A stretch of DNA of 64,000 bases from Eledone cirrhosa (taxonomy: Eukaryota), in contig OZ024746.1 in NCBI GenBank assembly GCA_964016885.1, positions 49,786,001-49,850,000 of the forward strand, given 5' to 3'. Position numbers and translations under genes: made by a program. Of the stretch, positions 22,836 through 33,823 are shown piece by piece. Below the pieces are notes generated by a model. It made no database searches and was not told the DNA's origin. It worked only from the letters and a program-made list of their open reading frames with translations. Every line of letters starts with the position of its first letter. Position 1 is the first letter of the stretch.

Positions 22836-23307
22836 TTTATATATATATATATATATTATATAATTGGAGGTTTAGTAAAATCGAATCTTTGGCGGTGTGC
22901 AAGCAAATTCGACCTACTATATGAATGAGTTAGCAAAGCACTCGACAAGGTAGGTCCTCAGAGTAATAACATACGTTTAAATAGCTTAACAAATTGAATA
23001 TTGTGGTAGGCAAAATCTAACACACAATACCAAAGTAACGAAAGAACTAACAGGTTGAAAAAATACACCTGGACAAATCAGACATTATACGTTTAAAGTG
23101 TTTCTATGAATCCGAAATCAAATATCAGACTTACGTAACTGGCAAGCTCGTGGTATATATATATATATATATATATATATATATGAATATAGACATAGGA
23201 TATTCGAAAATATTCTGTATGTTTATAATAAACATTTTGAAGACCTAATCGCTATAGAATAGAATACGTCACGTATTACAATTAGATTCTCGATAAAAGC
23301 AAGGGAA

Positions 23308-23350
23308 GTAATCTACGCGTTTCATTCTCGTTAGAAATCATCAGGACTAC
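23308..23350 (-). ncRNA. Minimal type I HHR of the 310-bp unit (first of 8 minus-strand copies, every 310 bp to 25478-25520)
   Basis: Reverse complement of the 25860-25902 motif. Confidence 0.85.
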
Positions 23351-25859
23351 ATATCCAGTGCTTTTATCGAGAATGACACAGCTAGAGACTTATAGAATAC
23401 TTAGCTGTGTACAGGAACTGGTTTGAAAGAGCGGTTGCCGGTCCGGCAGAAATTAGAAATTGGAATAAATGCTCTGAAATAGCGATATATATGTGAATAT
23501 AGACATAGGATATTCGAAAATATTCTGTATGTTTATAATAAACATTTTGAAGACCTAATCGCTATAGAATAGAATACGTCACGTATTACAATTAGATTCT
23601 CGATAAAAGCAAGGGAAGTAATCTACGCGTTTCATTCTCGTTAGAAATCATCAGGACTACATATCCAGTGCTTTTATCGAGAATGACACAGCTAGAGACT
23701 TATAGAATACTTAGCTGTGTACAGGAACTGGTTTGAAAGAGCGGTTGCCGGTCCGGCAGAAATTAGAAATTGGAATAAATGCTCTGAAATAGCGATATAT
23801 ATGTGAATATAGACATAGGATATTCGAAAATATTCTGTATGTTTATAATAAACATTTTGAAGACCTAATCGCTATAGAATAGAATACGTCACGTATTACA
23901 ATTAGATTCTCGATAAAAGCAAGGGAAGTAATCTACGCGTTTCATTCTCGTTAGAAATCATCAGGACTACATATCCAGTGCTTTTATCGAGAATGACACA
24001 GCTAGAGACTTATAGAATACTTAGCTGTGTACAGGAACTGGTTTGAAAGAGCGGTTGCCGGTCCGGCAGAAATTAGAAATTGGAATAAATGCTCTGAAAT
24101 AGCGATATATATGTGAATATAGACATAGGATATTCGAAAATATTCTGTATGTTTATAATAAACATTTTGAAGACCTAATCGCTATAGAATAGAATACGTC
24201 ACGTATTACAATTAGATTCTCGATAAAAGCAAGGGAAGTAATCTACGCGTTTCATTCTCGTTAGAAATCATCAGGACTACATATCCAGTGCTTTTATCGA
24301 GAATGACACAGCTAGAGACTTATAGAATACTTAGCTGTGTACAGGAACTGGTTTGAAAGAGCGGTTGCCGGTCCGGCAGAAATTAGAAATTGGAATAAAT
24401 GCTCTGAAATAGCGATATATATGTGAATATAGACATAGGATATTCGAAAATATTCTGTATGTTTATAATAAACATTTTGAAGACCTAATCGCTATAGAAT
24501 AGAATACGTCACGTATTACAATTAGATTCTCGATAAAAGCAAGGGAAGTAATCTACGCGTTTCATTCTCGTTAGAAATCATCAGGACTACATATCCAGTG
24601 CTTTTATCGAGAATGACACAGCTAGAGACTTATAGAATACTTAGCTGTGTACAGGAACTGGTTTGAAAGAGCGGTTGCCGGTCCGGCAGAAATTAGAAAT
24701 TGGAATAAATGCTCTGAAATAGCGATATATATGTGAATATAGACATAGGATATTCGAAAATATTCTGTATGTTTATAATAAACATTTTGAAGACCTAATC
24801 GCTATAGAATAGAATACGTCACGTATTACAATTAGATTCTCGATAAAAGCAAGGGAAGTAATCTACGCGTTTCATTCTCGTTAGAAATCATCAGGACTAC
24901 ATATCCAGTGCTTTTATCGAGAATGACACAGCTAGAGACTTATAGAATACTTAGCTGTGTACAGGAACTGGTTTGAAAGAGCGGTTGCCGGTCCGGCAGA
25001 AATTAGAAATTGGAATAAATGCTCTGAAATAGCGATATATATGTGAATATAGACATAGGATATTCGAAAATATTCTGTATGTTTATAATAAACATTTTGA
25101 AGACCTAATCGCTATAGAATAGAATACGTCACGTATTACAATTAGATTCTCGATAAAAGCAAGGGAAGTAATCTACGCGTTTCATTCTCGTTAGAAATCA
25201 TCAGGACTACATATCCAGTGCTTTTATCGAGAATGACACAGCTAGAGACTTATAGAATACTTAGCTGTGTACAGGAACTGGTTTGAAAGAGCGGTTGCCG
25301 GTCCGGCAGAAATTAGAAATTGGAATAAATGCTCTGAAATAGCGATATATATGTGAATATAGACATAGGATATTCGAAAATATTCTGTATGTTTATAATA
25401 AACATTTTGAAGACCTAATCGCTATAGAATAGAATACGTCACGTATTACAATTAGATTCTCGATAAAAGCAAGGGAAGTAATCTACGCGTTTCATTCTCG
25501 TTAGAAATCATCAGGACTACATATCCAGTGCTTTTATCGAGAATGACACAGCTAGAGACTTATAGAATACGAGAATGAAACGCGTAGATTACTTCCCTTG
25601 CTTTTATCGAGAATCTAATTGTAATACGTGACGTATTCTATTCTATAGCGATTAGGTCTTCAAAATGTTTATTATAAACATACAGAATATTTTCGAATAT
25701 CCTATGTCTATATTCACATATATATCGCTATTTCAGAGCATTTATTCCAATTTCTAATTTCTGCCGGACCGGCAACCGCTCTTTCAAACCAGTTCCTGTA
25801 CACAGCTAAGTATTCTATAAGTCTCTAGCTGTGTCATTCTCGATAAAAGCACTGGATAT

Positions 25860-32500: not shown

Positions 32501-33135
32501 CATGCTACTGTACGTCTGTATACATATATGTATGTACGTATACATGCATACTTACATTTAAGTAAGTGCCATACTAAGAGTGAGAAATGAAATTTCGTTT
32601 TCATTTTGTTTCAATTTATCGTTTTCGGTATGCCTGACCGATTTAACTCACTCAATATGCAAATTAGGCTGCTCAGCCGTTAATTTTCATAAGGAAAGTA
32701 TATACTTTCGAACGTTCAACTATCTGGCAGATGGGTAAACGGTGCTGATGATAGCTAACAAGCTTGAAACTAGTACATCGTTCCTGTGTCAGTGTTGAAC
32801 AAAAAGGTGACGTGGTTGCCTTAACACCGTATGGCATAAATTCAGGCTGTTCAGTTTGTTTACAAACGAACAAAGCGACGTTAGCGCCGCTAAACTGATA
32901 CGTGCATATATGTATGTGTACCTGTATGCATATGTATGTATATATGTATATATATATATATATATGTGCATGCTACTGTACGTCTGTATACATATATGTA
33001 TGTACGTATACATGCATACTTATATATATATATATATACATATATATATATATGTATATATATATATATATATATATATATATATATAGATATATATATA
33101 TATATATATATATATATATATATATATATATATAT

Positions 33136-33823
33136 AAATGTAAGTATGTATGTATACGTACATACATATATGTATACAGACGTACAGTAGCATGCATATA
33201 TATATATATATATATATATATATATATATACACATATATATACACATATGCATACAGGTACACATACATATATGCACGCATCAGTTTAGCCTACGTTTAT
33301 TATAACGCCGGCCGCTTTGTTCGTTTGTTTGTCAACAAAGCGAACAGCCTGAATTTATGCCATACGGTGTTAAGGCAACCACGTCACCTTTTTGTTCAAC
33401 ACTGACACAGGAACGATGTACTAGTTTCAAGCTTGTTAGCTATCATCAGCACCGTTTACCCATCTGCCAGATAGTTGAACGTTCGAAAGTATATACTTTC
33501 CTTATGAAAATTAACGGCTGAGCAGCCTAATTTGCATATTGAGTGAGTTAAATCGGTCAGGCATACCGAAAACGATTAGTTGAAAAAAAATGAAAACGAA
33601 ATTTCACTTCTCACTCTTAGTATGGCACTTACTTAAATGTAAGTATGTATGTATACGTACATACATATATGTATACAGACGTACAGTAGCATGCATATAT
33701 ATATATATACACATATATATACACATATGCATACAGGTACACATACATATATGCACGCATCAGTTTAGCCTACGTTTATTATAACGCCGGCCGCTTTGTT
33801 CGTTTGTTTGTCAACAAAGCGAT
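33136..33823 (-). mobile_element. ~1.4 units of a variant subfamily of the 468-bp retrozyme
   Basis: Same unit but with diagnostic GCCTACGTTTATTATAACGCCGGCCGC block, present in both partial units; HHR at 33412-33456. Confidence 0.9.

What the first reader, a model, noticed from the sequence alone, without database searches (positions are those of the whole stretch)
23184..33823. Hammerhead-ribozyme retrozyme arrays that integrate like the neighbouring Penelope elements: a candidate PLE-driven circular-RNA retroposition system
Seen: two different satellites (310 and 468 bp) each carry one type I HHR per unit (13 and 12 complete copies). Their units look identical apart from one substitution I found at 28869. 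Both sit in (TA)n, and each flips orientation once so that the ribozyme-sense 3' ends point outward. The PLE at 44268-47489 and the PLE-end palindrome at 18485-18975 have the same geometry. Established: metazoan non-LTR retrozymes are tandem HHR repeats that give circRNAs, and PLEs carry minimal HHRs and often make inverted insertions. Inference: self-cleaved monomers circularise, and PLE RT primes on both ends of a cut TA tract and copies the circle by rolling-circle reverse transcription, writing two multimeric arms in one event. Putative enzyme and cargo footprints lie side by side here.
Basis: partly seen in the sequence, partly recalled or inferred. Interest (0 to 1): 0.92.

Follow-up and report, generated by a model that had tools for sequence, protein, structure and literature searches.

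The report
Retrozyme arrays with Penelope insertion signature
These repeats, which carry a self-cutting RNA motif, are a known kind of non-coding genome parasite (retrozymes), but across this animal genome their insertions bear the distinctive marks of Penelope-like retrotransposons and look copied from one RNA circle in two directions, genomic support for a life cycle that had been proposed but, in the papers I found, not shown.

Summary
In detail: 13 type I hammerheads in the 310-bp array, 11 in the 468-bp array plus one in a separate older copy, one substitution (28869), one inversion each, TA flanks. These are metazoan non-LTR retrozymes. PLE mobilisation through circles is already proposed in print.

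The genome adds the insertion anatomy. Three families have thousands of ribozyme copies each. All 30 of 30 inverted loci sampled without selection point 3' ends outward. In 42 of 42 complete 310-family insertions, one arm ends at unit position 127-139 and the other at 163-172. This is the 'tail' mark described as unique to PLEs, and a young Neptune-type PLE here shows it too (11 of 12). Inner ends are random and joined by microhomology. Ten arrays carry a private variant in every unit examined, while only 1 variant is mirrored between arms against 19-29 expected from a linear multimer. That favours one circular monomer as template.

Not shown: expression, self-cleavage, circles, read support for the two junctions, and which PLE is the partner (no shared tail sequence). 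Very long arrays grew later by recombination. Verdict: new variant of a known kind, interest 0.7.

The parts
23154..23183 (.). (TA)n target tract left of the 310-bp array
23184..25570 (-). 310-bp retrozyme, left arm, 7.7 units, 8 hammerheads; outer 3' end at the 'short' start site (unit position 130-139, position 1 = base after the cleavage site); inner end at position 224
25569..25570 (.). inversion junction of the 310 array, 2-nt microhomology
25569..27300 (+). 310-bp retrozyme, right arm, 5.6 units, 5 hammerheads; outer 3' end at the 'long' start site (position 165); inner end at position 293
25851..25916 (+). example 310-type type I hammerhead: core 25866-25896, 6-bp stem I with a long extension, U.U at the base of stem II, 1-bp stem III with a palindromic tetraloop, predicted cut after 25896
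27301..27733 (.). compound TA tract between the two insertions
27734..29372 (-). 468-bp retrozyme, left arm, 3.5 units, 3 hammerheads; outer end at the 'long' site (position 308-312); the one substitution is at 28869
29369..29372 (.). inversion junction of the 468 array, 4-nt microhomology
29369..33022 (+). 468-bp retrozyme, right arm, 7.8 units, 8 hammerheads (first core 29469-29499, predicted cut after 29499); outer end at the 'short' site (position about 248-253)
33135..33823 (-). separate, diverged 468-subfamily copy, single arm of about 1.5 units, 1 hammerhead, short-site end in TA
33822..33929 (.). TA tract right of the cluster
44266..47489 (.). two-armed, 5'-truncated insertion of a young Neptune-type PLE (GIY-YIG frames 44822-45586 on - and 46277-46984 on +); minimal hammerheads near 44520 (-) and 47286 (+); 60-nt tail on the left arm only (about 44266-44325). 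Candidate enzyme source, not shown to be the partner
18446..18980 (.). short two-armed insertion with outward ends and a tail of about 40 nt on the left arm; probably the end of another PLE family
61430..61725 (-). single-arm copy of a third retrozyme family (466-bp unit, related to the 468 family; hammerhead 61642-61612), inserted in the 3' region of a Hydra-type PLE with a 12-14-nt target duplication

Best explanation
[quoted passage not shown] (1) An array is transcribed; the weak 1-bp-stem-III hammerheads cut, probably as dimers, and monomers are ligated to circles (inferred from published retrozymes). (2) A PLE protein binds the circle and nicks both strands of a (TA)n tract (inferred from the in vitro work on PAc and from TA flanks on both sides). 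(3) Each DNA end primes at one of two adjacent internal sites of the same RNA, about 26-40 nt apart in the 310 family, about 60 in the 468 and about 70 in the 466 (the two end classes are shown; the priming is inferred). (4) Each RT goes round the circle several times, on average 4-5 turns, and stops at a random place (arm lengths and random inner ends shown; circle inferred from variant patterns). (5) The two cDNA ends are joined by microhomology-mediated end joining, giving a head-to-head array with one tailed end (junction marks shown; repair route inferred). (6) A few arrays later grow by unequal exchange (shown for the longest 466-family arrays). PLE-type mobilisation alone I put at about 0.9; the full model with a circular template at 0.7.
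For: Dispersed, high-copy families: exact ribozyme matches 2172+1913, 5226+5046 and 1202+1299, reversed-pattern controls 0. Polarity in the first 100 listed places of each family: 9 of 9, 12 of 12 and 9 of 9 inverted loci point outward. Tail: 10 of 10 unselected 310-family two-arm insertions have one short and one long end, and in 32 of 32 more picked by a long end the other end is short. The same holds in 10 of 10 468-family loci with both ends called, of 13 two-arm loci examined, and in 4 of 4 466-family loci with both ends seen. Genome counts on the + strand: 774 long ends and 619 short ends in TA, against 1 at a control TATA site of the unit. The Neptune-type PLE shows the same: 11 of 12 insertions with both ends called, of 16 examined, tail 60 nt. 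Its two arms differ by 0.25% against 0.61% between insertions, and an uninterrupted 1269-aa frame exists. The tail is reported as unique to PLEs and to match two adjacent internal RT start sites (PMC11167929; PMC8557442). TA of 8 nt or more on both sides in 39 of 42, background 8% per position. Inner ends fit a uniform spread (94 ends, KS p 0.10; 2 within 5 nt of the cut site, 3 expected) and are independent between arms. Microhomology of 2 nt or more in 24 of 35 junctions without insert, 18% expected; 7 of 7 inserts of 6 nt or more copy nearby sequence. Single template: 21 array-wide haplotypes among 47 arrays; 10 of 52 insertions carry a private variant in every unit examined, 9 of them across both arms; 1 mirrored partial variant against 19-29 expected for a linear multimer. 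About 465 passes over the cut site show no recurrent scar. Older arrays are not longer (rho -0.18, p 0.22). Both circles fold better than shuffles (z -4.4 and -9.1).
Against: No RNA, cleavage or circle was observed here. No retrozyme start region aligns with the Neptune tail better than shuffles (23, 186 and 438 of 500 shuffles reach the score). The only link to a PLE end is the 310 ribozyme's likeness to a Hydra-type PLE ribozyme (26 of 28 nt, 7 of 300 shuffles reach it), which core constraints may explain. In vitro, the PLE PAc uses uncut RNA and does not need its hammerhead, so uncut linear multimers are a real substrate class. Only 1 of 9 Xenopus retrozyme dimers cut in vitro. Eight partial variants in 7 arrays do not fit a pure one-circle birth, notably a 9-of-13 block in L052. 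Arrays of 31 and more than 35 units show shared, periodic variants from later DNA-level growth. The 19-29 expectation assumes that parent arrays carried today's variant load. Many 468-family loci show one strand only (42 of 54), so two arms are not obligatory or often stop before the ribozyme. All counts come from one assembly of unknown technology, mostly from one chromosome.
Confidence: 0.7

Rival explanations
1. PLE machinery inserts the arrays, but the template is linear: an uncut multimeric read-through transcript, or a cut monomer on which the RT jumps from 5' end to 3' end repeatedly.
For: All PLE marks (tail, polarity, TA target) fit equally well. PAc prefers unprocessed RNA in vitro. 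Weak 1-bp stem III and a U.U pair predict slow cutting. One mirrored variant (L065) and one block variant (L052) exist.
Against: A linear multimer passes a unit's private change to one rank per arm, never to all units; 10 arrays have private changes in all units examined and 1 has a mirrored change, against 19-29 expected. Copying a linear array can only shorten it, yet 21 haplotypes have arrays of 3 units or more. Jumping at cut ends should leave scars or run-off ends at the cut site; 2 of 94 inner ends lie there.
Confidence: 0.15
2. A PLE inserts only one or two units per arm; the arrays are then built locally as ordinary satellites by unequal crossing-over, the route suggested in the discussion of the 2026 preprint.
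For: The longest 466-family arrays carry variants shared among neighbouring and periodically spaced units; the 468 array L030 has recurring unit lengths. The preprint names this route.
Against: 310-family arrays of 12.6-14.5 units have no internal variant at all; 65 variants are single-unit against 8 partial; length does not rise with age. Both arms would have to expand separately while keeping exact ends.
Confidence: 0.08
3. One cDNA is made, folds back on itself and is copied to give the second arm (self-priming), or a LINE makes the inversion by twin priming; no two-ended PLE priming is needed.
For: Self-priming was proposed for PLE palindromes (PMC3846280). 3 of 16 Neptune junctions are near-perfect hairpins. 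A LINE with RT and AP-type endonuclease domains lies in the window.
Against: 310-family junctions show no excess of hairpin geometry (7 of 45 within 20 nt, 6 expected), and either end class sits on the longer arm (22 to 20). Both arms end at fixed internal sites with no A-tail. LINE twin priming leaves one 3' end with an A-tail (recalled, not from a call).
Confidence: 0.05
4. The inversions are fold-back chimeras or assembly artefacts.
For: No read could be laid over the two window junctions; the assembly method is unknown.
Against: Junction phases differ between arms, outer ends fall in two exact classes, and outer flanks are unrelated beyond TA in nearly all of 42 loci. Polarity is 30 of 30 in three families. 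A filled site matches an empty site with a target duplication.
Confidence: 0.02

Closest known systems
Metazoan non-LTR retrozymes (Cervera and de la Pena 2020, PMC7229834; parts 2-4 of 6 read, supplement not readable)
   Same: Tandem non-coding units with one type I hammerhead each, GC below 50%, well-paired predicted circles. The ribozymes join the 1-bp stem III with palindromic tetraloop of axolotl HHR_Amex1 and the U.U stem II base of HHR_Amex2. The paper proposes circle, RT, tandem cDNA, and names PLEs as strong candidates.
   Different: The parts read give no inverted two-arm insertions, tail, fixed start sites, TA targeting or variant test of the template. The 2020 review says the repeats show no motif from which to deduce the partner (PMC7761336, passages). 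Expression and cleavage were shown there and not here. The 466/468 units are slightly above the 150-450 bp range.
[quoted passage not shown]
   Same: Concludes that retrozymes are non-autonomous PLE derivatives that hijack PLE enzymes.
   Different: Its evidence is co-occurrence and pLTR homology in Xenopus. 'Tail' and 'orientation' do not occur in the text and 'inverted' only in a reference. It suggests local amplification for the tandems. Here insertion anatomy is the evidence, and pLTR homology was not found.
Endonuclease-bearing PLE insertions with inverted 5'-truncated copy and tail (Arkhipova 2013 PMC3846280, passages; Craig 2021 PMC8557442, passages and section 11; Frangieh 2024 PMC11167929, parts 1-2 of 4 read)
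   Same: Head-to-head inverted arms, a tail on one end only, (TA)n preference, nicking and extension of both strands, two adjacent internal RT start sites, mobilisation of cargo in trans.
   Different: The cargo here is a short non-coding unit repeated up to 14 times per arm with one sequence, which points to a circular template; those papers treat linear or partial-tandem PLE RNA. Tails here are about 26-70 nt against the 30-40 described.
Non-autonomous Chlamys PLEs such as MRC1 (Craig 2021, passage; PMC9977147, passages)
   Same: [quoted passage not shown]
   Different: Most Chlamys elements lack canonical hammerheads, and the non-autonomous ones resemble their partners at the 3' end; here each unit has a ribozyme and no such likeness was found.

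Membership tests
Metazoan non-LTR retrozyme | Short head-to-tail repeat (150-450 bp in the defining paper, 51-972 bp in the 2026 survey) | tested here: met
   310, 468 and 466 bp; the last two are just above the narrower range
Metazoan non-LTR retrozyme | One type I hammerhead in each unit | tested here: met
   13 and 11 complete motifs, shuffles 0-1; local folds
Metazoan non-LTR retrozyme | No protein coding, GC below 50% | tested here: met
   no frame of 120 aa in the arrays apart from TA-tract read-throughs; GC 0.33-0.37 in array bins
Metazoan non-LTR retrozyme | Highly self-paired circular fold | tested here: met
   prediction only: z -4.4 and -9.1 against 60 shuffles
Metazoan non-LTR retrozyme | Self-cleavage and accumulation as circRNA | not testable with these tools
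   needs bench work or RNA reads of this species
Metazoan non-LTR retrozyme | Target-site duplication longer than 4 bp when present | tested here: inconclusive
   hidden by TA tracts; one 12-14-nt duplication for the 466-family copy at 61430-61725 against an empty site in L093
Rfam hammerhead families (RF00163, RF02275) | Score at or above the gathering cut-off | tested here: not met
   none at gathering; HH9 15.8 and 18.5 bits against 52
PLE-mobilised non-autonomous element | Tail: two adjacent 3' end sites, the longer on one end only | tested here: met
   42 of 42, 10 of 10 and 4 of 4 complete insertions; genome counts 774, 619 and control 1
PLE-mobilised non-autonomous element | Inverted 5'-truncated copy, head to head | tested here: met
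   30 of 30 unselected inverted loci
PLE-mobilised non-autonomous element | Microsatellite target shared with autonomous PLEs | tested here: met
PLE-mobilised non-autonomous element | Sequence shared with the pLTR or 3' end of a named autonomous family | tested here: inconclusive
   no match to the Neptune tail or the palindrome family; ribozyme-only likeness to a Hydra-type family; only four PLE-type ends were compared, not the genome's whole set
Neptune clade (PLE at 44268-47489) | C-terminal GIY-YIG with upstream CX2-5CxxC and internal CCHH | tested here: met
   read from the proteins; Pfam GIY-YIG E 2e-4, just under its cut-off; motif as described
Neptune clade (PLE at 44268-47489) | Placement in the PLE RT tree | not tested
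   no reference set was at hand; 'Neptune-type' rests on motifs, and Nematis is not excluded

The most novel reading that the evidence does not exclude
These arrays are direct genomic records of a two-headed rolling-circle retroposition: a PLE enzyme pair nicks both strands of a TA tract and copies one ribozyme-made RNA circle from two neighbouring start sites at once, for up to about 14 turns, so that each satellite array is born whole. The rule holds for at least three retrozyme families here and would give a sequence-only test, the tail, to assign retrozymes to PLEs in any animal genome.
Probability: 0.6. Interest if true: 0.8.

Novelty: new variant of a known kind. Interest (0 to 1): 0.7.

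Why it matters
How hammerhead satellites of animals spread has been open since the newt satellite. Reviews name PLEs as likely helpers but say that nothing in the repeats identifies the partner. Here the insertions carry the one mark described as unique to PLEs, in three families and, for the 310 family alone, more than a thousand mapped ends. The variant pattern points to a monomeric circle as template. This maps exact start sites on a small RNA and supplies young, intact candidate enzymes from the same genome, so the published in vitro PLE assay can test circle against linear template directly. It also bears on the PLE mechanism itself: independent inner ends and one haplotype in both arms argue for two-ended priming on one RNA, not fold-back. 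And it shows a route by which satellite arrays arise in one step.

Tried and rejected
Rfam at gathering score: nothing. The E-value scan of 18000-48000 was swamped by TA-driven microRNA matches in the 150 of 398 rows shown. A DNA search of the own genome with the unit returned nothing because common words are skipped; patterns were used instead. I first took the hammerhead at 61642 for the pLTR ribozyme of the adjacent Hydra-type PLE and so for the partner. Other copies of that PLE lack it, and it proved to be a third retrozyme family, so I withdrew the idea. Partner search: no likeness of start regions to the Neptune family or the palindrome family; a TA-end catalogue of 824 kb linked no retrozyme end to a PLE frame. 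A Hydra-type family with 17,791 pattern matches has a 310-like ribozyme and a 68-nt tail, but the likeness is limited to the ribozyme. A genome-wide search with a general hammerhead pattern gave no answer, so the full set of PLE ribozymes was not listed. Matching tail lengths (468 with Neptune, about 60; 466 with that Hydra-type family, about 68) may be chance and are not used as evidence. Polarity counts from the 40 loci picked by a long end are outward by construction and were left out of the polarity test. Three 'partial' variants at positions 127 and 131 come from masking the terminal turn and were counted as fixed. Sequencing runs: no RNA holder listed. Raw reads of X23 gave 0 laid reads, which is no test of the junctions. 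No match in metagenome contigs. That family variants avoid the ribozyme core is true but expected by chance about one time in three, so it is not used. The word 'octopus' was a guess from memory; no call identifies the organism. Literature searches found no paper describing inverted, tailed retrozyme insertions. Subscription journals, Repbase, the supplement of PMC7229834 and the preprint's supplements were not visible and could hold such a description.
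Full report
Observation. The window lies at G000:C6:49786001-49850000 of a 3.0-Gb animal genome that I did not identify. The two arrays, their single inversions and TA flanks are as described. A type I hammerhead scan gives 13 motifs in the 310-bp array, 11 in the 468-bp array and one in a separate, diverged copy at about 33135-33823; 30 shuffles give 0 or 1. 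The only difference among units is at 28869. Both ribozymes have a 6-7-bp stem I, a U.U pair at the base of stem II, and a 1-bp stem III with a palindromic tetraloop. Such motifs are reported to cut mainly as dimers (PMC4209133, part 1 of 4 read; PMC7229834). Rfam misses them at gathering score. As circles, both units fold better than shuffles.

Families. Exact ribozyme patterns occur 4,085 times (310 family) and 10,272 times (468 family); reversed controls give 0. The hammerhead at 61642 belongs to a third family with a 466-bp unit and 2,501 matches, which aligns with the 468 unit at 302 identical positions. In the first 100 listed places of each family, inverted loci point their 3' ends outward in 9 of 9, 12 of 12 and 9 of 9 cases. 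One apparent inward pair 1.85 kb apart is two insertions (L023). Of 54 loci of the 468 family, 42 show ribozymes on one strand only.

The tail. Numbering each unit from the cut site, outer ends are not random. I examined the window and 50 fetched stretches of the 310 family. All 42 two-arm insertions with both ends in view have one end at 127-139 and the other at 163-172. Ten were unselected; 32 were picked by the long end, so only their second end is a test. On the + strand of the genome, 774 long ends and 619 short ends abut TA, against 1 at a control TATA site of the unit; the two patterns differ in stringency. The 468 family ends at about 250 and 310, one each in 10 of 10 loci with both ends called, of 13 two-arm loci. 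The 466 family ends at about 230 and 300 in 4 of 4. Craig et al. describe a tail at one end of PLE insertions. Frangieh et al. show that a PLE protein nicks and extends both target strands, starts at two adjacent internal sites, and that the tail is the sequence between them, a mark they call unique to PLEs.

PLEs of this genome. The element at 44268-47489 is Neptune-type by its motifs. The best 150 matches to its endonuclease are 98-100% identical, and L174 holds an uninterrupted 1269-aa frame. All 16 inverted pairs that I picked from that list point outward, and 11 of the 12 with both ends called have one short and one long end, 60 nt apart; the twelfth has two long ends. Arms of one insertion differ by 0.25%, different insertions by 0.61%. 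Two Hydra-type families also end in TA with outward arms and tails of about 115 nt (one locus read) and 68 nt. No retrozyme start region aligns with the Neptune tail better than shuffles, so the partner is open.

Target and junction. TA tracts of 8 nt or more flank both sides in 39 of 42 insertions. One filled site can be set against an empty one: the 466-family copy at 61430-61725 sits in a short TA run of a Hydra-type element with a 12-14-nt duplication. The 94 inner ends are spread over the unit without a peak at the cut site. They are independent between arms, with no excess of hairpin junctions, and either end class may sit on the longer arm. Microhomology of 2 nt or more is seen in 24 of 35 junctions without insert (18% expected), and all 7 inserts of 6 nt or more copy nearby sequence. 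This fits two separate cDNAs joined by microhomology-mediated repair.

Template. Among 47 arrays of 3 units or more there are 21 array-wide haplotypes. Ten of 52 insertions, the window's included, carry a variant seen nowhere else in every unit examined, 9 of them in both arms. A linear multimer would instead pass a variant to one rank in each arm; 19-29 such cases are expected if parents carried today's load, and 1 is seen. Arms average 4.3 and 4.7 units and reach 14.4. Arrays of 12.6-14.5 units have no internal variant, and length does not rise with age. A monomeric circle copied several times round is the simplest reading. Against it stand 8 partial variants in 7 arrays, one a 9-of-13 block, and the longest 466-family arrays, whose shared periodic variants show later growth by recombination.

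Mechanism. Shown in sequence: two start-site classes, one per arm; outward polarity; TA target; random, microhomology-joined inner ends; one haplotype per insertion. Inferred: transcription, dimer-type self-cleavage, ligation to circles, binding by a PLE protein, nicking of both strands and rolling-circle reverse transcription from both ends. Not tested: any RNA, any cleavage, read support for the window junctions. I give 0.9 to PLE-type mobilisation and 0.7 to the full model.

Known work. Non-LTR retrozymes, their circles and the PLE-helper hypothesis are in print (PMC7229834; PMC7761336; PMC5680766, passages; PMC11722881, passages). A 2026 preprint argues for PLE origin from co-occurrence and pLTR homology and leaves the mechanism open. 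Inverted arms, tails and trans-mobilisation are known for PLEs. Eight searches found no description of inverted, tailed retrozyme insertions or of a variant test for a circular template; unseen supplements and subscription papers may hold one. Unchecked notes of this scan report similar PLE marks on a ribozyme-free tandem element and on PLE stumps in other genomes; they are leads only.

Verdict. A real, recently active system of a known kind, with an insertion anatomy that I did not find described and that makes the proposed life cycle directly testable. New variant of a known kind; interest 0.7.

Noticed in passing
window 25816-26125 (310 unit) in runs X1-X20: The unit is held at 0.56-0.84 of sampled words by contigs of 20 runs labelled as 18 organisms in 17 studies. 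Of three laid, two give one closed 340-nt contig at depth 6.7 and 34, and one a 267-nt piece lacking the stretch around the cut site. Hi-C reads labelled organism A gave 0 laid reads in 1,938 Mb. Trace carry-over, diet or index hopping are the likely causes; a circle shared across hosts is not excluded.
   Followed up: partly
window 23119-23153 and 33930-33969; L017; L022 with L034: Short inverted duplications of flanking DNA (about 35, 12 and 14 nt) face each other across the TA tract that holds the arrays; perhaps a by-product of insertion.
   Followed up: partly
window 27301-27733; L011, L020, L049: Flanking TA tracts are often long and compound (median about 35 nt, up to about 4 kb). Whether they grow during insertion needs empty alleles.
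   Followed up: no
window 39744-40028 (+): A further type I hammerhead (core 39839-39870, palindromic tetraloop) in a short element with partly inverted ends next to TA; family not identified.
   Followed up: no
window 56792-56841 (+); L088, L100, L102: Another hammerhead family with a long stem II and a 2-bp stem III; several related families appear in the fetched DNA.
   Followed up: no
L178-L203 and the list: A Hydra-type PLE family with 17,791 ribozyme-pattern matches often forms tiny palindromes whose centre lies just 5' of the ribozyme core (copies 39-51 nt apart), unlike the random junctions of the retrozymes.
   Followed up: partly
window 61724-62948 (-); L093: A Hydra-type PLE (RWR, DKT and CxCX5C motifs; 834-residue stop-to-stop frame in L093) in which my scan found no hammerhead, although that clade is described as always having one.
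   Followed up: partly
L174:1157-4966 (-): The Neptune-type frame carries a long asparagine/histidine/threonine-rich stretch, recalling the N-rich inserts of rotifer Penelope frames; its tail lies inside the start of the frame, as in PAc.
   Followed up: no
L039, L045, L052, L054, L057, unit position 276: An A-to-G change in stem I recurs on several haplotypes, fixed in three arrays and partial in two; gene conversion, template switching or RNA editing could explain it.
   Followed up: no
window 231-5237 (+), 36619-38943, 53647-54171, 55305-55685, 58237-59785: A LINE with endonuclease, RT and zf-RVT domains, and more PLE-like fragments, one a second copy of the Neptune-type family.
   Followed up: no
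468, 466 and 310 units and L158: A short ATATCG/TATCG motif lies at one or both start sites in all three retrozymes and the Neptune-type element, with a small hairpin shortly 3' of the long site; seen after the fact, untested.
   Followed up: no
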